Origin: Planctomycetota bacterium
Lineage (GTDB): Bacteria; Planctomycetota; JAJSAM01; JAJVHW01
DNA: 64,000 bases
Assembly (NCBI GenBank): GCA_965248445.1
Contig: CBDFJG010000002.1
Coordinates: 288,001-352,000, forward strand
Direction of reading: 5' to 3'
Position numbers and translations under genes: made by a program. The notes under the pieces are model-generated. The model searched no databases. It was not told where the DNA came from and saw nothing but the letters and a program-made list of their open reading frames with translations. Below are positions 9,089 through 18,594 of the stretch, one piece after another. The number at the start of each line of letters is the position of its first letter. Position 1 is the first letter of the stretch.

Positions 9089-9163
9089 GCCAGCGTAGCT
9101 CAATGGCAGAGCCCCTGTTTTGTAAACAGGAGGTTGTGGGTTCGAGTCCCGCCGCTGGCTCCA
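9089..9163 (+). tRNA. tRNA-Thr(TGT)
   Basis: GCCAGCG/CGCTGGC acceptor stem, cctgt-TT-TGT-AA-acagg anticodon arm, GGTTCGAGTCC, encoded CCA. Confidence 0.97.
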
Positions 9164-9228
9164 TGGCCGTGTGTACCGGGTCGCGCGCGACACGATCGCG
9201 TGCGCGCACGCAGCCTGACATCAACGGT

Positions 9229-9314
9229 GGGTAGTTGCCTGAGCGGTCAAAAGGACCAGACTGTAAATCTGGCGGCGTACGCCTTCAGTGGTTCGAATCC
9301 ACTACTGCCCACCA
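9229..9314 (+). tRNA. tRNA-Tyr(GTA)
   Basis: GGGTAGT/ACTGCCC acceptor stem, ccaga-CT-GTA-AA-tctgg, long variable arm, GGTTCGAATCC, ACCA end. Confidence 0.97.
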
Positions 9315-9626: not shown

Positions 9627-11158
9627 GTACCCGTTCAGGGTATGACGATCCGCGGCCTCAGCGCGTGATCGGGAGCGCGACGAGAGCCGGCGGCGAGCGG
9701 TTGTGCGCGAGTGCCGCGCTGACGTCTGCGAGGTAATCGAAGACGCTCTCGCCACGCTGGCGGAGCGTGGCGGTGACGGTCAGGATGCGCTCGACGAAGC
9801 GGAGTCCGCGCTCGCTCTGACTTCCGTGCGTTGCGCGTCTCCACAGGACCGGCTTGCGCACCGCGCGCTCAGCGGCGTTGTTCGTCGGGGAGACGCCAGG
9901 GACGTCGGCGAAGGTCCACAGAGCCTCCGCTCGGTCGAGCAGATGCCGAGTCGTTCCGCGTACTCGGCGGTGCTTGCTGTCTGCGCCGCGCACGAGCAGC
10001 GTCAGGAGTCGGTCCCATGTGAGACGCAGCTCACGCCGCATGCGGTCGCGGTCCCCGTGCTCGCCGAAGTGACGCTGAGCTCGCATGACAGCCTGGGCGA
10101 GACGCACGGCCTGCTTGCCGAAGCGCCGGCCGCCGCGCGAGCCCTCGGCCAGCGCTCGAAAGTCCCTCTCGAGATGCGCCCAGCAGATCTGGCGGCGCTC
10201 GGTGGGATGCTGGTCGTAAGCGCCCATACGGTCGGTCACGAGGACGCCCCTGAAGCGCTTGCCCACGAGTCGCCGCATGGCCTTGGCGCTCCTGCGCCGA
10301 TCGATACGATGGACCGTGGCGTGCTCACAGACCGCGCTCCACAGCCAATGCAGCGTGCCACGACGCGACCACGGTGTCTCGTCTACATAGGCGACGCTGC
10401 TCGTGCGTACGGCCCCGAGGGCCTCGATGTGCGCTGAGGAGATGGCTCCCGACACCCGCTCCTCGATCGCACTGACCGTGCCCGGTGACATCGAGACGCC
10501 GATGACGTCACGCAACAGACGACTGGTCTCGCGCCGCGACAGGCGGAAGACGCCGACCAGAGCCGCGGTGAGCGCACAGAGTCGCGGGCCGAAGGGACTC
10601 GCCGTCACACCGCTTGGCAGCGAGGCAGTGGACGTGGCGCCACAGTCCGTGCACCGTGCCCGGTGCAACCGGTGCTCGGTCACCTGGATCAGCCGTGGCG
10701 GGACCTCGAAGACCTGCTGGCGTGTCGGGGCGCGATCGATCGGGACGAGCACGTCGCTCCCACACGCGCTGCACTCGCGCGGGCGGTGGTCCTCTACGCC
10801 ATCGACCTCGGACTCGTCCACGAGCTTGCGCGTCGCCCCTTTGTGGCCGGGCTGCGCACCCTGGCGCTTGTCCGACGGCGGCTTGCGCCGCCGCCGCTTC
10901 TTGGACCACGACGGATCCGAGGACGGTGGGCGCGAGGAGGTGCGGGAGTCCCGGCGAAGACGGCTCTCGAGATCGTCGATCCGTGCCGCCTGCCGCTCGA
11001 TCACCTCCGCCTGCTCGGCAATCGTCTCGTCCCGAGCGTCCAGACGACGGGTCAGGCGCTCGACCAGATCACGCAGCTCATCGGTGCCCACATCCGATTC
11101 ATCGACCGAACGGAAAGCGATCTGGATCCGAGCTCAGAACCAAGGGCTGAACGGGTAC
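9627..11158 (-). mobile_element. IS66-family element A (single-ORF, ISBst12-like), complete copy
   Basis: Terminal inverted repeats GTACCCGTTCAG (9627) / CTGAACGGGTAC (11147-11158) enclosing one TnpC-type ORF. Confidence 0.93.
9658..11091 (-). CDS. IS66 transposase (TnpC-like)
   Basis: DSRTSSRPPSSD, GAQPGHKG, two CxxC, YVDET, TDR, QICWAHL.RDF, PTNNAAERAVR. Confidence 0.95.
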   Translation of the reverse strand: MGTDELRDLVERLTRRLDARDETIAEQAEVIERQAARIDDLESRLRRDSRTSSRPPSSDPSWSKKRRRRKPPSDKRQGAQPGHKGATRKLVDESEVDGVEDHRPRECSACGSDVLVPIDRAPTRQQVFEVPPRLIQVTEHRLHRARCTDCGATSTASLPSGVTASPFGPRLCALTAALVGVFRLSRRETSRLLRDVIGVSMSPGTVSAIEERVSGAISSAHIEALGAVRTSSVAYVDETPWSRRGTLHWLWSAVCEHATVHRIDRRRSAKAMRRLVGKRFRGVLVTDRMGAYDQHPTERRQICWAHLERDFRALAEGSRGGRRFGKQAVRLAQAVMRAQRHFGEHGDRDRMRRELRLTWDRLLTLLVRGADSKHRRVRGTTRHLLDRAEALWTFADVPGVSPTNNAAERAVRKPVLWRRATHGSQSERGLRFVERILTVTATLRQRGESVFDYLADVSAALAHNRSPPALVALPITR

Positions 11159-12403
11159 GTCCACAGAGCCTCCGCTCGGTCGAGCAGATGCCGAGTCGTT
11201 CCGCGTACTCGGCGGTGCTTGCTGTCTGCGCCGCGCACGAGCAGCGTCAGGAGTCGGTCCCATGTGAGACGCAGCTCACGCCGCATGCGGTCGCGGTCCC
11301 CGTGCTCGCCGAAGTGACGCTGAGCTCGCATGACAGCCTGGGCGAGACGCACGGCCTGCTTGCCGAAGCGCCGGCCGCCGCGCGAGCCCTCGGCCAGCGC
11401 TCGAAAGTCCCTCTCGAGATGCGCCCAGCAGATCTGGCGGCGCTCGGTGGGATGCTGGTCGTAAGCGCCCATACGGTCGGTCACGAGGACGCCCCTGAAG
11501 CGCTTGCCCACGAGTCGCCGCATGGCCTTGGCGCTCCTGCGCCGATCGATACGATGGACCGTGGCGTGCTCACAGACCGCGCTCCACAGCCAATGCAGCG
11601 TGCCACGACGCGACCACGGTGTCTCGTCTACATAGGCGACGCTGCTCGTGCGTACGGCCCCGAGGGCCTCGATGTGCGCTGAGGAGATGGCTCCCGACAC
11701 CCGCTCCTCGATCGCACTGACCGTGCCCGGTGACATCGAGACGCCGATGACGTCACGCAACAGACGACTGGTCTCGCGCCGCGACAGGCGGAAGACGCCG
11801 ACCAGAGCCGCGGTGAGCGCACAGAGTCGCGGGCCGAAGGGACTCGCCGTCACACCGCTTGGCAGCGAGGCAGTGGACGTGGCGCCACAGTCCGTGCACC
11901 GTGCCCGGTGCAACCGGTGCTCGGTCACCTGGATCAGCCGTGGCGGGACCTCGAAGACCTGCTGGCGTGTCGGGGCGCGATCGATCGGGACGAGCACGTC
12001 GCTCCCACACGCGCTGCACTCGCGCGGGCGGTGGTCCTCTACGCCATCGACCTCGGACTCGTCCACGAGCTTGCGCGTCGCCCCTTTGTGGCCGGGCTGC
12101 GCACCCTGGCGCTTGTCCGACGGCGGCTTGCGCCGCCGCCGCTTCTTGGACCACGACGGATCCGAGGACGGTGGGCGCGAGGAGGTGCGGGAGTCCCGGC
12201 GAAGACGGCTCTCGAGATCGTCGATCCGTGCCGCCTGCCGCTCGATCACCTCCGCCTGCTCGGCAATCGTCTCGTCCCGAGCGTCCAGACGACGGGTCAG
12301 GCGCTCGACCAGATCACGCAGCTCATCGGTGCCCACATCCGATTCATCGACCGAACGGAAAGCGATCTGGATCCGAGCTCAGAACCAAGGGCTGAACGGG
12401 TAC
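11159..12403 (-). mobile_element. Truncated tandem copy of IS66-A (equals 9914-11158)
   Basis: Matches copy 1 at offset +1245; ORF 11134-12336 identical up to ...EALWT then reads into the IR of copy 1; lacks the NNAAER catalytic segment. Confidence 0.93.
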
Positions 12404-12842
12404 GCGTGTCGGGGCGCGATCGATCGGGACGAGCACGTCGCTCCCACACGCGCTGCACTCGCGCGGGCGGTGGTCCTCTACGCCATCGACCTCGGACTCG
12501 TCCACGAGCTTGCGCGTCGCCCCTTTGTGGCCGGGCTGCGCACCCTGGCGCTTGTCCGACGGCGGCTTGCGCCGCCGCCGCTTCTTGGACCACGACGGAT
12601 CCGAGGACGGTGGGCGCGAGGAGGTGCGGGAGTCCCGGCGAAGACGGCTCTCGAGATCGTCGATCCGTGCCGCCTGCCGCTCGATCACCTCCGCCTGCTC
12701 GGCAATCGTCTCGTCCCGAGCGTCCAGACGACGGGTCAGGCGCTCGACCAGATCACGCAGCTCATCGGTGCCCACATCCGATTCATCGACCGAACGGAAA
12801 GCGATCTGGATCCGAGCTCAGAACCAAGGGCTGAACGGGTAC
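12404..12842 (-). mobile_element. Second truncated tandem copy of IS66-A (equals 10720-11158)
   Basis: Matches copy 1 at offset +1684; ORF 12344-12775 encodes only the N-terminal ~124 aa; ends in CTGAACGGGTAC. Confidence 0.93.
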
Positions 12843-13118
12843 GGACGCGGCATCTCTCTTCGAGGTCCGGTTCAGGTCATGCGCACCAAGATCTCGGGTG
12901 CCGGCGCCGAGGGCGTCTTCGTGGAACTCGGGGGGACGCTTCTCGACAGGGTGACCATCAAGGACTCGACGCTCGACGGCCTCCACGTCGTCGAGGGAGG
13001 CAATGAGTTCGTGAAGGTCAAGGCGTCGGGGAGCGGCGCACTGGACGTCGTCGACGAAGCGGGCGCCGCCGCGAACACGTACACGAACTGCAAGTTCGGG
13101 AACGCCTCGCCGCCGTAG
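12843..13118 (+). pseudogene. 3' remnant of a beta-helix-like protein gene, 5' part replaced by the IS66 array
   Basis: Frame GRGISLRGPVQVMRTKISGAGAEGVFV...NTYTNCKFGNASPP* begins exactly at the IS end; repeat pattern resembles parallel beta-helix. Confidence 0.55.
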
Positions 13119-15126: not shown

Positions 15127-15327
15127 CTACTTGCTATCGAGTTCTTCCCGAATCTCTGTCTCGAGCTCGGCCGCCACGTCGTAGTGGCGCCCGATGCGCA
15201 GCCGCGACTCCGTGATGCTCAAGACGGCGTCGATCGCGTCGATCGTCTTGGCCCTTGTTCTTCAGGCGGCGCGCCTCACCGAGTTTCGCCTCCTGCGCGT
15301 CGAGCTGTCTCGTGGCCGTGGCGTCAT
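15127..15327 (-). pseudogene. Short frameshifted gene fragment
   Basis: ...QLDAQEAKLGEARRLKNK in one frame continues as AKTIDAIDAVLSITESRLRIGRHYDVAAELETEIREELDSK* in another. Confidence 0.3.
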
Positions 15328-15761
15328 GACTCCAACTCGCCCCACGTGCACACCCGAATCCCTGAGAATTGCTCCGTGCGCCGCTGGATGAAGCGCAGGA
15401 TCGCGTCACGAACGGACTGCACGTCGCGATCGTGTTTGCTACTCCGCCTGAGGAGCAGCGCGCGCAAGGGCGTATCCATGTGCCAGACCTGAAGAGTCCA
15501 CACGTCTCGATCGGCCTCCCCGGTCGGGCCTATCACTGTCCACGTCAAGTGGATCGCGACGATCGTGGCCCGTGAGTCCACAACCGCCGTGAAGCCAGAT
15601 CCCTCGGCGATCGGTTGCCCCCGCGCCGAGATAGACTCACTCTCGATGCCGTCGAGGATGTGCCGCAGGCACATCCTCCCCGCGGCATCGGGCGACGCAT
15701 TGGGATCGTTGGCTAGGCTCGCCGGGAACATGGCGCTTTCAAAGGCCAAGACCTCATCCAA
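15324..15761 (-). CDS. Small hypothetical protein, candidate immunity protein
   Basis: 145 aa, directly downstream of and co-oriented with the toxin-like remnant; original start probably GTG 15777 before a CTAG duplication. Confidence 0.55.
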   Translation of the reverse strand: MDEVLAFESAMFPASLANDPNASPDAAGRMCLRHILDGIESESISARGQPIAEGSGFTAVVDSRATIVAIHLTWTVIGPTGEADRDVWTLQVWHMDTPLRALLLRRSSKHDRDVQSVRDAILRFIQRRTEQFSGIRVCTWGELES

Positions 15762-15766
15762 CCTAG

Positions 15767-16917
15767 CTAGTAGTCACCTTCGTTCGCGCCCTCCGACGAG
15801 AGAGCATCCCACACCCCGTAGGAGACACCCGCGCCACCAACAACGATAACCCCGCCGGCGACCTTCAGTCGAGTGGGACTTGCGTACCAGCGTACCAGAT
15901 GTACTGCGTCTTGCTGAATGACTCAAGGCCGCCGACAACGTTCGCCGCATTCCACGGTTCCCCCCTGAACAGAGGGAACGTATTGCCTGTCTTGCGTCCG
16001 AAGGGCGCGATCCCGCCGGGGCCCCGGGGCCTCCACCGTGTGCTCGTGCATGGAATTCGTAGAACTGACCCTTCGTCGCTCGCGAGCCGCGAGCCTAGCG
16101 TCTTCAGGTTCCAGGCGCTGTCGACGTATCGACTCAAGAGCCGCCCGCGCAGCGACTCTGGGCCGTACCTCGGGATGAGGACCTTCTTGATGTAGGCGCT
16201 GTGAACGAAGTGATGTCCTGGCCGCGTGTAGGGGGTAGCGAGCCTCTCGGCAGCGCGCTGGGAGTAGCCCTGCTTCAGATAGCGAGTCGTCTGATCGGCT
16301 ACGGCGTCACCGCGCCTCACGATCGTCCCGAGACGCTGATAGTACCGTGAGACGCCCTCTTCGAACGTACCCGCCGTGATGCCCGATGCCTTCGACGCGA
16401 ACGGGCCGAGCACACCACCCAGCACGCCGCACGCCGCCAGCGATGGCAGCTCGAGTTATGGATCCATCGTCCCAGTCGCTCGGGGTAATCGAGTCGTGCT
16501 TCAGCGTCTGCCAGAGCGCCTCCTCTGCGATTGCCGTCGCGGCGCCAACGGCCACACCGGTCCCGACAGCCAACGCCGCCCCCCAGAAGGTCGCCCCGGT
16601 TGCACTCACCGCGGCGGCGACGGAGAGTCCGCCCGCCACCGCCGCCCCGCCAAGTACAGCGATGACCAGTGCCCCGACCGTGTAGACGCCCATCTCCAAG
16701 GGCGTCATGCCCTCGAACATGTCGCCGAGTGCATCCAGGCCGCTCTGGAACGCGCCCTCGGCTTTGGCGAAGTTGAACGCAGCGTGCGCGCGCTCGAGGC
16801 GCAACAACTGATCCGAGTCGTCGATCCCCGCGGCTTCGAGCGCATCGTCAGCGCCGAACCATCGGCCGGCGAGGTCTACCGCGGACTCCAGCAGATTTCG
16901 CGCCGCGGAGCCTGGGA
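15767..16917 (-). pseudogene. C-terminal remnant of a polymorphic (Rhs-like) toxin, 5'-truncated at IS1380 and broken by four micro-duplications
   Basis: Frame open from the IS1380 edge; long Gly/Ala hydrophobic pre-toxin segment, then YTRPGHHFVH...WNLK...KGQFYEFH...IWYASPTRLK; GC lower than flanks. Confidence 0.7.
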
Positions 16918-16921
16918 CTAA

Positions 16922-18590
16922 CCCGAATCGTTCACCAGCCGGGAATCTGAGCGGGCCGTCGTCTGTCTAAGTGCTCGTACTCGCTAGTACTTGCACCGAC
17001 AGGAGCGCCGGCCCGATGACGACAGACTGTAGCCCGCAGGGGACCCTCTTCGCGGGCATCTGTGGACGCACCGCGGTGACGCGCTTCGACGCCGGTACCG
17101 TGACGAGCGACGGGGGCGTGCTGCTGCTCGAGCGGACCGATCGTCGCATCGATCTGCTCTCGCGGTTTGCGCGCTGCTTCGGGGACCACCGGGACCCGCG
17201 TCGGGTCGAGCACACGGTCGGCCAGATGCTGCGTCAGCGGGTCTTCGGGCTGTGCGCGGGCTACGAGGATCTGGTGGACCACGACCATGTCGGCAAGGAC
17301 CCGCTGTTTGCCGCGGCGTGCGGCAAGCGCGAGGGTGCTCTGGCCACGCACCCGACGCTCTCGCGGCTCGAGACCACGCAGCTCGGCGCCACGGCACAGA
17401 CGCGCTACGCCAAGATCGAGATGGACCAGGAGCGCGTGGACAGCGTGCTCAGCGACGTCTTCTGCGAGGCCATGGGGCCGGAGGATCCGGGCCTGCTCGT
17501 GCTGGACCTGGACCACTCCGACGTGCGGCTGCACGGCCGGCAGGAGGGCCGCTTCTTCCACGGCTACTACGGGCACTACTGCTACCTGCCGCTGTACGTC
17601 TTCTGCGGCGAGCACCTCTTGCTCGCTCGGCTCCAGACCGCTGACAGAGATCCCGCGCGCGGAGTCGTGGACGAGCTCCGTGCGCTGGTCTTACGTCTGC
17701 GGCGCCGCTGGCCCCGGGCCAAGGTGCTCGTGCGCGCAGACTCGGGCTTTTGCCGCGAGGAGCTGATGGCCTGGTGCGAGGCCGCCGGCCACTTCTACCT
17801 GCTGGGCATGGCGCGCAATGAGCGCCTTGAGCGACACGTCGAAGACGCGCTCGATGAGGCCGCAGCCCGTGCCGTGCAGACCGGCCGAGCAGCCCGGGTC
17901 TTTCGCGACTTTGCCTGGACCACGCTGGGGAGCTGGAGCCAGAGGCGTCGCGTGGTCGCCAAGGCCGAGCACCTGCCGGGCGGCAAGCGCAATCCCCGCT
18001 TCGTGGTGACCAATCTGCCGCCTCGTAGCTGGAGCAGCAAGCGTCTCTACGAGCAGCTCTACTGCGCCCGGGGCGAGGCGGAGAATCGCATCAAGGAGCA
18101 GCAGCTCGAGCTCTTCGGCACCCGTCTGTCGGTGCACACGATGCAGGGCAACGCCGTGCGGATGGCCATGTCGGCCATGGCCTACGTCCTGACCTGTGCG
18201 CTGCGACGCATCGGTCTCGCCGGCACCGAGATGGCGCGTGCGCAAGCCGGCACGATCCGCCTGCGGCTGCTCAAGATCGGCGCGCTCGTGCGGATCACGA
18301 CGCGCCGGATCTGGGTCTCGATGTCCTCGTCGTGGCCCTGGCAGCACGTCTTCGAGCGCTGCGCGCAACGACTGCTGGCATCCCCGAAGCCGACCTGACG
18401 TCCCGCCGCGCCGTCCGCCACACCACCGCCCGGCCTACGGTCTGCCCACACCGCAGAATCCGCGCCGTTTCGGCCGCTCACTCGCGTTGCCCTTGTGGCA
18501 ACGACGACAGCATCCGCCCTCGCCTGGCCAAGATCTGACCCTGTGGACTCCGAAAGCACCGTCATCGCGACGTCTCGTGAACAGATGCGG
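16922..18590 (+). mobile_element. IS1380-family insertion sequence
   Basis: Imperfect IR CCCGAATCGTTCACCAG ... CTCGTGAACAGATGCGG; flanked by CTAA / CTAG. Confidence 0.85.
17016..18398 (+). CDS. IS1380-family DDE transposase
   Basis: FDAGTVTSDGG, GYEDLVDHD, LDLDHSD..LHGRQEGRFFHGYY, VRADSGF, YCARGEAENRIKEQQ, TIRLRLLKIGA. Confidence 0.96.
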   Translation: MTTDCSPQGTLFAGICGRTAVTRFDAGTVTSDGGVLLLERTDRRIDLLSRFARCFGDHRDPRRVEHTVGQMLRQRVFGLCAGYEDLVDHDHVGKDPLFAAACGKREGALATHPTLSRLETTQLGATAQTRYAKIEMDQERVDSVLSDVFCEAMGPEDPGLLVLDLDHSDVRLHGRQEGRFFHGYYGHYCYLPLYVFCGEHLLLARLQTADRDPARGVVDELRALVLRLRRRWPRAKVLVRADSGFCREELMAWCEAAGHFYLLGMARNERLERHVEDALDEAAARAVQTGRAARVFRDFAWTTLGSWSQRRRVVAKAEHLPGGKRNPRFVVTNLPPRSWSSKRLYEQLYCARGEAENRIKEQQLELFGTRLSVHTMQGNAVRMAMSAMAYVLTCALRRIGLAGTEMARAQAGTIRLRLLKIGALVRITTRRIWVSMSSSWPWQHVFERCAQRLLASPKPT

Positions 18591-18594
18591 CTAG

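What the first reader, a model, noticed from the sequence alone, without database searches (positions are those of the whole stretch)
15763..16435. Toxin gene riddled with TSD-sized micro-duplication scars; collapsing them restores one ORF
Seen: four exact tandem duplications within ~550 bp: gcacgcc x2 (16422-16435, 7 bp), cgcgagc x2 (16081-16094, 7 bp), ccggggcc x2 (16016-16031, 8 bp) and gcgtacca x2 (15882-15897, 8 bp). Deleting one copy of each gives a single minus-strand frame from the IS1380 edge to TAG at 15767: ...AIAGGV|LGGVLGPF...NLKTLGSR|ATKGQFYEFHARAHGGGP|GGIAPFGRK...QYIWY|ASPTRLKVAGGVIVV...EGDY*. Every frameshift I needed sits on a duplication. Known: IS66 makes 8-bp target duplications. 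Inference: these are empty footprints of elements that inserted and were then removed with the flanks rejoined, keeping the TSD. Repeated footprints like this are not the usual outcome for bacterial IS. They could indicate an excision/end-joining activity, or aborted strand transfer with staggered-cut fill-in, acting on foreign DNA as a gene-inactivating mutator.
Basis: partly seen in the sequence, partly recalled or inferred. Interest (0 to 1): 0.85.

Follow-up and report, generated by a model that had tools for sequence, protein, structure and literature searches.

The report
IS66 transposon footprints scar bacterial genes
The four tiny duplications that break this bacterial toxin gene are real and recur across the genome; they look like marks left where a jumping gene (IS66) once sat, a kind of scar familiar from plants and animals but not expected in bacteria, and this organism also carries a DNA end-joining kit not found in the close relatives searched.

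Summary
Observation confirmed. The four 7/8-bp tandem duplications are present and form the densest such cluster in the 5.4-Mb genome. Read-derived contigs of three runs from one sample span them unchanged. Intact homologues (an unnamed Rhs/PT-TG polymorphic toxin tip, with a conserved downstream immunity gene) carry the window's out-of-frame pieces in one frame.

The pattern is genome-wide. Frame-breaking duplications are enriched only at 8 bp (12 of 68) and 7 bp (5 of 243), and orthologues confirm 5 of 6 tested. Twelve confirmed scars match the target context of one resident single-ORF IS66 (p<0.0002), not of the IS1595 elements. All ten 7-bp candidates fit an 8-bp target joined through one shared base. 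Ku and LigD are present here; Ku was found in 0 of 16 family/order relatives.

Best reading: IS66 leaves, and end joining seals the flanks with both target copies kept (about 50%). IS66 authorship by any route is about 80%. No occupied/empty site pair was found, raw duplication density is not above relatives, and targeting of foreign DNA is not shown. The scan's notes hold similar scars in eukaryotes and one single bacterial case.

The parts
15767..16917 (-). Pseudogene of a polymorphic (Rhs/PT-TG-type) toxin tip of an unnamed family; 5' part cut off at IS1380; broken at four duplications
   Evidence: homologues carry RHS_repeat (P0006) or PT-TG (P0004); conserved G-x-H, N, H-x3-H columns suggest an HNH-like nuclease (inference)
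16422..16437 (.). 7-bp tandem duplication (match run 9); also present in the second copy on contig C3
16081..16095 (.). 7-bp tandem duplication (match run 8); best IS66 target-context score of the four (99th-100th percentile of null)
16016..16031 (.). 8-bp tandem duplication
15882..15898 (.). 8-bp tandem duplication (match run 9); homologue length matches exactly across it
15324..15761 (-). Intact 145-aa ORF, probable cognate immunity gene; carries no scar
   Evidence: 43% identity, E 1e-31, to the gene directly downstream of the intact toxin homologue in L121
13591..15090 (+). IS66B, single-ORF (ISBst12-type) IS66 with about 49 left and 49 right ends in the genome and 8-bp target duplications; the family whose target context best fits the scars
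9627..12842 (-). IS66A: one full copy plus two abutting partial copies
16918..18594 (+). IS1380-family element (about 72 copies) between 4-bp CTAR cores; truncates the toxin gene
16095..16921 (.). 827-bp segment copied at 100% identity to C3:1128047-1128873, bounded by CTAR cores and joined to an IS1380 right end; carries the 16422 scar
9089..9314 (+). tRNA-Thr and tRNA-Tyr at the left edge of the IS-rich island (context)

Best explanation
The duplications are empty-site footprints of a single-ORF IS66, most likely IS66B. The element inserts and duplicates 8 bp (shown for this genome). It is later cut out at its tips (inferred). The two flanks, each still carrying the target copy, are sealed by the host's Ku/LigD end joining (inferred). 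A flush join leaves an 8-bp duplication; a join through one shared terminal base leaves a 7-bp duplication whose match runs 8 bp or more. Scars persist where selection is weak, such as this already truncated toxin tip, and in some conserved genes of an IS-flooded genome. IS66 authorship by any route: about 0.8. This exact route: about 0.5.
For: Size spectrum: with >=8 matching bases, frame-restoring repeats are enriched only at period 7 (5) and 8 (12), with 0 at 5, 11 and 13 and 1 at 10; 8-mers 12/68 versus 5-mers 42/3151, the same frame class, p=5e-10. Orthologues show exactly +8 at four sites and +7 at one, 5 of 6 tested. In multi-copy DNA the internal tandem insertions over 3 bp were one 7-bp and two 8-bp events; the 7-bp one is shared by 3 of 10 IS3 copies on three contigs. 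Target context of 12 confirmed scars fits IS66B: summed LLR +8.9 versus null -9.1, 0 of 5000 draws; outer flank alone p=0.0002; far-flank control p=0.31; IS66A -2.5; the two 1-kb IS1595 families p=0.54. 10 of 10 confirmed or frame-restoring 7-bp cases have run >=8 against 0.46 expected (p=4e-4; confirmed only 4 of 4, p=0.04). Ku (over cut-off), LigD (PE-LIG-POL) and a second NHEJ ligase lie together at C1:348-352 kb; Ku found in 0/7 family, 0/9 order, 1/14 phylum relatives. Read-derived contigs carry the scars.
Against: No site occupied in one copy and scarred in another: 0 of 106 IS-end flanks that recur elsewhere. Raw 8-mer density (3.2/100 kb) is not above relatives (4.5 in G005 at the same GC, 8.1 in G001); the excess of frame-restoring 8-mers over relatives is modest, 12/68 versus 2/45, p=0.03, and G005 shows a similar unclassified/in-frame ratio on small numbers. 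The most diagnostic IS66 position (G depleted two bases outside the target, 10%) is not reproduced in 30 unambiguous candidate 8-mers (30% versus 35%), a pool that includes chance repeats. Only one of the four window scars scores highly on its own. One ISBst12-group element was reported to keep its donor sites (PMC12898284, passages). Ku/LigD is a single-genome correlation.
Confidence: 0.5

Rival explanations
1. Aborted integration: the IS66 transpososome cuts or partly joins a target with its 8-nt stagger, the element never settles, and fill-in plus ligation (LigD or gap repair) leaves the duplication.
For: Predicts the same sizes, the same IS66 target context and the same 1-nt-overlap 7-bp class; explains the absence of occupied/empty pairs and clustering of scars (8-mer pairs within 600 bp, 9 versus 3.3 expected, p=0.006); compatible with donor retention reported for ISDge4.
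Against: DDE transposases normally break the target only by joining an element end to it (established knowledge, recalled); no IS-end remnants were seen between spaced 8-bp repeats at periods 10-25, which neither model requires.
Confidence: 0.2
2. IS66 loss by a route that does not need Ku/LigD: a copy-out intermediate resolved by strand switching or another host polymerase, in the manner of IEE, here keeping both target copies.
For: IS66 context; four AEP-TOTE primase-polymerase ORFs are present; G005 has IS66, no Ku found, and a similar unclassified 8-mer ratio, 11 versus 6.
Against: The AEP-TOTE ORFs read (2 of 4, in part) look like integrative-element primases, and none of 14 ResIII helicase matches lies in them; IEE is described as giving precise excision and deletions.
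Confidence: 0.12
3. Transposon-independent micro-duplication (replication slippage, or end joining of random staggered breaks) fixed in a decaying genome.
For: Raw densities are not elevated; scars sit in weakly selected DNA near IS; the G-at-minus-2 test failed.
Against: No excess at 4, 5, 10, 11 or 13 bp; sizes equal the resident target duplication; IS66B context with a negative far-flank control.
Confidence: 0.12
4. Assembly or library artefact (collapsed IS copies, amplification chimeras).
For: All runs come from one sample that may be the assembly's source; one loose end looks like an amplification adapter (recalled).
Against: Independently assembled read contigs of three runs show no difference and no IS junction at the scars; one scar is copied in a second locus and another is inherited by three IS3 copies sharing a SNP state; some 250 IS copies are assembled intact.
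Confidence: 0.05

Closest known systems
Excision footprints of eukaryotic cut-and-paste transposons sealed by NHEJ (Ac/Ds hAT, Tc1/mariner, MULE; recalled, and seen as search listings)
   Same: Target duplication kept after the element has gone; frameshifting; occasional loss of a base at the join; end-joining machinery present.
   Different: Bacterial host and an IS66 DDE transposase; only two products seen (flush 8, 1-nt overlap 7), with no palindromic or element-end bases between the copies; departure of an element not directly shown.
IS66 family, ISBst12 group (e.g. ISDge4; PMC12898284, passages)
   Same: Single ORF of 466-477 aa over the NCBIfam IS66 cut-off, terminal inverted repeats starting GTA, 8-bp target duplication.
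   Different: ISDge4 was reported to keep donor loci; empty footprints are not described in the passages read; the authors call the family's mechanism insufficiently characterised.
IEE-stimulated IS excision in E. coli O157 (PMC9943667 and bioRxiv 10.1101/2023.06.07.543989, passages)
   Same: Transposase plus a host AEP polymerase with microhomology joining removes IS copies.
   Different: Products described are precise excision and adjacent deletions; IEE is an AEP fused to an SF2 helicase, an architecture not found here; IS66 is not mentioned in the review (0 occurrences).
Repeat-mediated trace-free transposon removal in Haloquadratum (PMC3119063, passages)
   Same: Names the target duplication left as a footprint as one theoretical outcome of transposon exit in a prokaryote.
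   Different: What that paper infers is removal down to one target copy; here both copies remain.
Polymorphic toxin systems (Rhs / PT-TG tips with adjacent immunity gene)
   Same: Variable N-terminus, conserved C-terminal domain, conserved downstream partner gene.
   Different: The tip domain matches no Pfam or NCBIfam family and no solved fold; here it is a truncated pseudogene.

Membership tests
Transposon excision footprint (NHEJ type) | Duplication length equals the target duplication of a resident element | tested here: met
   IS66A/B/C and three IS1595 families give 8-bp duplications; scars are 8 bp, or 7 bp with run >=8
Transposon excision footprint (NHEJ type) | Sites carry the element's target preference | tested here: met
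   IS66B profile, 12 confirmed scars, 0 of 5000 null draws; far-flank control negative; one single-position test on a mixed pool failed
Transposon excision footprint (NHEJ type) | Ancestral state has one copy of the repeat | tested here: met
   orthologues at 5 of 6 sites; paralogous IS copies; toxin homologues
Transposon excision footprint (NHEJ type) | Same site seen occupied by the element | tested here: inconclusive
   0 of 106 recurring IS flanks lead into a scar; no IS loose ends at the four scars in read contigs, which drop rare variants
Transposon excision footprint (NHEJ type) | Dependence on end-joining proteins | not testable with these tools
   Ku and LigD genes are present and open; dependence needs genetics
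IS66 family, ISBst12 group | Single IS66 transposase ORF, GTA...TAC inverted repeats, 8-bp DR | tested here: met
   NF033517 247 and 295 bits versus cut-off 180; ends and DRs
IEE system | AEP domain fused to a C-terminal SF2 helicase | tested here: not met
   4 AEP-TOTE matches, none sharing an ORF with the 14 ResIII matches; a diverged IEE could be missed
Bacterial NHEJ (Ku + LigD) | Ku gene beside LigD with polymerase, phosphoesterase and ligase domains | tested here: met
   TIGR02772 233.6/150; TIGR02778 251.5/214.7; adjacent ligase TIGR02779 236.9/227.75; the LIG and PE domains within LigD score under their cut-offs
Polymorphic toxin with immunity gene | C-terminal domain on Rhs/PT-TG carriers with conserved downstream partner | tested here: met
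   RHS_repeat in P0006, PT-TG in P0004 (2 of 13 scanned); partner conserved in 1 of 4 loci
HNH-like nuclease toxin | Beta-beta-alpha-metal fold and catalytic His/Asn | tested here: inconclusive
   invariant H, N, H, H columns; model of natural homologue P0002 pLDDT 64, best Z 4.7 on a terminal helix only

The most novel reading that the evidence does not exclude
A bacterium that gained Ku/LigD during an IS explosion repairs IS66 donor gaps the eukaryotic way, so IS66 acts as a hit-and-run frameshift mutagen. It has left roughly 50-70 footprints (rough estimate), a fossil record of past insertions and of IS66's unresolved transposition chemistry, with clusters marking local hopping.
Probability: 0.4. 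Interest if true: 0.8.

Novelty: new variant of a known kind. Interest (0 to 1): 0.62.

Why it matters
Bacterial insertion sequences are generally thought to leave the donor intact, destroyed or precisely restored. A genome-wide class of both-copies-kept footprints tied to one IS66 would show that donor-site fate depends on host repair. It would give a testable handle on the uncharacterised IS66 mechanism and add a hidden route to pseudogenes in IS-expanding genomes: frameshifts with no element left to annotate. The test is cheap: count 8/7-bp frame-breaking duplications across complete genomes grouped by IS66 load and Ku/LigD.

Tried and rejected
The search for homologous proteins on the largest piece found nothing at E<=0.001; the exhaustive search did (P0012 and P0014 are unrelated repeat matches and were dropped, leaving 13 of 15, of which 12 span the scars). 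Pfam and NCBIfam gave no family for the toxin pieces or immunity ORF. Atlas: no usable hit for P0002; three unnamed clusters for the immunity ORF. Fold search uninformative. IS1380 as scar maker rejected: its target is the 4-bp CTAR. IS1595 families rejected on context: F1040a/b p=0.54; F1100 scored above its null on the 12 confirmed sites (p=0.007) but with a strongly negative LLR (-48) and not on 29 sites. IS66-specific local hopping not shown: 8-mers per 100 kb are 8.3 near IS66 only, 5.2 near other IS only, 2.7 far; with distance to IS held fixed and the 16422 scar masked, the largest cluster (3) has p=0.23 for the mixed class. The symmetric alignment test against 1.2 Mb of relatives was underpowered: 1 of 10 G000 8-mers and 0 of 13 relatives' 8-mers were net insertions. 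The L014 site falls at a gene start and was inconclusive. The 7-bp repeat at 12965 (run 7) lies in an ORF that reads through it, and 9-bp repeats like 15227 are not enriched near IS, so both are treated as probably chance. No relative of the IS66B transposase was found by pattern scan. Run X4 covers only 16095-16915. Eight paper searches on IS excision, footprints, NHEJ and IS66 and two more listed no report of genome-wide both-copies footprints in a bacterium; the library lacks most subscription papers, including the primary IS66 papers cited. No supplements were read.

Full report
Observation. The four duplications are at the stated places: 15882 (8 bp), 16016 (8 bp), 16081 (7 bp) and 16422 (7 bp). 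Both 8-bp duplications of the 64-kb window lie here. In the 5.4-Mb, four-contig genome this is the only 700-bp stretch with four 7/8-bp duplications; two others have three. A uniform rate gives P=9e-7 locally and about 0.03 expected clusters genome-wide. Contigs assembled from the reads of three runs cover all four sites with no other letters, no gaps and no IS junction at a scar. These runs are one sample and may be the assembly's source, so they test the assembler, not the biology.

The gene. An exhaustive protein search with the largest piece returned 15 hits, 13 of them one family. Twelve span the region and carry, in one frame and in order, the pieces that lie in three frames in the window; 4 of 4 intact loci do the same for the three middle pieces. 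The length match is exact at 15882, loose at 16016 (variable loop), and one residue off at 16081, which is unexplained. The link at 16422 rests on weak N-terminal similarity. Two of 13 homologues carry RHS or PT-TG domains. The ORF at 15324-15761 is 43% identical to the gene directly downstream of the homologue in L121. This is a polymorphic toxin tip with its immunity gene; the immunity ORF is intact and the toxin is cut at its 5' side by IS1380. Invariant His/Asn columns suggest an HNH-like nuclease (inference), but the fold search did not confirm it. The host is probably a planctomycete, from earlier scan notes and homologue record titles; I did not test this.

The genome. About 11% is repeated DNA: some 72 IS1380, 49 IS66B, 35 IS66A, 8 IS66C, and IS1595, IS3 and other families. 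IS66 and IS1595 duplicate 8 bp; IS1380 uses a 4-bp CTAR core. Only 2 of 40 full IS66B and 14 of 32 IS66A copies keep their own target pair; many halves match another copy, as recombination between copies and adjacent deletion would give (PMC11708052, abstract).

The scars are genome-wide. A coding-frame model applied to all unmasked tandem duplications found frame-restoring cases in 12 of 68 classifiable 8-mers and 5 of 243 7-mers, against 42 of 3151 5-mers and 53 of 9605 4-mers (p=5e-10 and 0.014). Requiring eight matching bases, periods 5, 11 and 13 gave none and period 10 one; periods 14-25 gave 0-4 each, and multiples of three cannot be tested. Orthologues in same-family genomes showed exactly +8 bases at four sites (13 of 13 alignments) and +7 at one (2 of 2); a sixth site at a gene start was inconclusive. 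In multi-copy DNA, one 7-bp and two 8-bp tandem insertions were found; the 7-bp one is shared by 3 of 10 IS3 copies on three contigs. The 16422 scar is also in a second copy of 16095-16921 on C3. From the excess of unclassifiable cases I estimate about 55 8-bp and 15 7-bp scars (derived; rough).

Against. Raw 8-mer density in G000 (3.2 per 100 kb) is below that in sampled DNA of G005 (4.5; 397 kb) and G001 (8.1; 800 kb, higher GC). Frame-restoring 8-mers were 2 of 45 in those samples (p=0.03 against G000), and G005 has a similar unclassified/in-frame ratio on 11 versus 6 cases. The signal is in the frame-breaking class, not in total counts.

Who made them. Flanks of resident elements give target profiles. 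Twelve confirmed scars (four here, four 8-bp and one 7-bp orthologue-confirmed, three from repeats) fit the IS66B profile: summed LLR +8.9 against -9.1 for random synthetic duplications, 0 of 5000 draws; outer four bases alone p=0.0002; far-flank control p=0.31. IS66A fits less well (-2.5) and the IS1595 profiles are strongly negative. In-frame chance 8-mers do not score above null. A stricter single-position test failed: G two bases outside the target is 10% at IS66 sites but 30% in 30 unambiguous candidates from a mixed pool. Of the window's four scars only 16081 scores highly alone.

The 7-bp class. No resident element was shown to make 7-bp duplications (one possible chance pair). All ten confirmed or frame-restoring 7-bp cases have a match run of 8 or more, against 0.46 for random 7-bp duplications (p=4e-4). 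Enrichment near IS ends is stronger for run>=8 7-mers (2.6-fold within 1 kb versus 1.2-fold). This is what an 8-bp target with equal first and last base gives when joined through that base; 23 of 52 real IS66 targets have that property. The in-frame 7-bp repeat at 12965 has run 7.

Repair machinery. Ku, LigD and a second NHEJ-type ligase sit together on C1 as open frames. Ku was not found in 7 same-family or 9 same-order genomes (76-98% complete) and was found in 1 of 14 others of the phylum; IS66 was found in 5 of 7 family members at low number. Four AEP-TOTE ORFs exist; the two read in part look like integrative-element primases, and none shares an ORF with a ResIII helicase match, so no IEE architecture was found.

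Mechanism. Shown: derived 8- and 7-bp duplications, IS66-sized, in IS66B-like context, in a Ku/LigD-positive, IS-flooded genome. Inferred: an IS66 sat at each site, was cut out at its tips, and the flanks were joined flush or through one base (0.5). Aborted target cutting with fill-in predicts the same products (0.2), and nothing here separates the two: 0 of 106 recurring IS flanks led into a scar. One ISBst12-group element was reported to keep its donor sites (PMC12898284, passages). The pile-up in this gene is best explained by relaxed selection after truncation, perhaps with local clustering (8-mer pairs within 600 bp: 9 versus 3.3, p=0.006); conserved genes are hit too, so a mutator aimed at foreign DNA is not shown.

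Relation to what is known. It works like eukaryotic cut-and-paste footprints (recalled; listings), but one defining test, the occupied site, is inconclusive. IEE gives precise excision and deletions (passages). A Haloquadratum paper names the retained target duplication as a theoretical outcome while inferring trace-free removal (passages). Passages of PMC5001619 and PMC10359306 added nothing on footprints. Ten searches listed no genome-wide bacterial case; the library is partial and no supplements were read. The scan's notes hold eukaryotic scar sets and one single 8-bp duplication in a bacterial pseudogene, unchecked here. Verdict: real, a new variant of a known kind, interest 0.62.

Noticed in passing
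window 16095-16921 and G000:C3:1128047-1128873 (L004): In the window this segment abuts the IS1380 left end; on C3 an identical copy abuts an IS1380 right end, both borders falling on CTAR cores, and the 149 bp beside it are repeated at C3:1114420-1114568 next to another IS1380. This suggests circular permutation or strand exchange at the CTAR core. Read contigs confirm the junction.
   Followed up: partly
G000:C4:1198091-1203113; C3:1041255-1044604; C3:1101663-1105012: Head-to-tail IS1380 dimers and a trimer sharing a single CTAG between copies.
   Followed up: no
window 9627-12842: One full IS66A followed by two partial copies (1245 and 439 bp) that keep the same end; the target half at the first junction is matched on C4:380457, so nested insertion followed by rearrangement.
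   Followed up: partly
L001:5347-5825 (G000:C4:1854360-1854824): Three 8-bp duplications within 465 bp beside an IS1380; one lies at the end of a small basic ORF with no Pfam match.
   Followed up: partly
G000:C1:348436-352300 (L005, L009, L120): ku-ligD-ligase cluster not found in 16 family/order relatives, about 5 kb from an IS1380; probable lateral gain.
   Followed up: partly
L119 and two other IS3 copies: A frameshifted IS3 sub-lineage carrying a 7-bp duplication in orfB is present three times, so it was copied in trans or by gene conversion.
   Followed up: yes
L006, L007, L008: Two related elements, each matched twice, encoding a 930-1010-aa AEP-TOTE primase downstream of a RecD-like helicase; one pair lies in a 9.2-kb repeat at the start of contig C2.
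   Followed up: partly
L115 family (IS1595, 10 copies): Most copies have CTAG or CTAA immediately outside the 8-bp target duplication, a strong site preference.
   Followed up: no
L114 (G000:C4:879505-880549): This IS1595 copy's transposase is split across two frames near its 3' end.
   Followed up: no
window 15227-15245: 9-bp tandem duplication downstream of the immunity gene; 9-mers are not enriched near IS, status unknown.
   Followed up: partly
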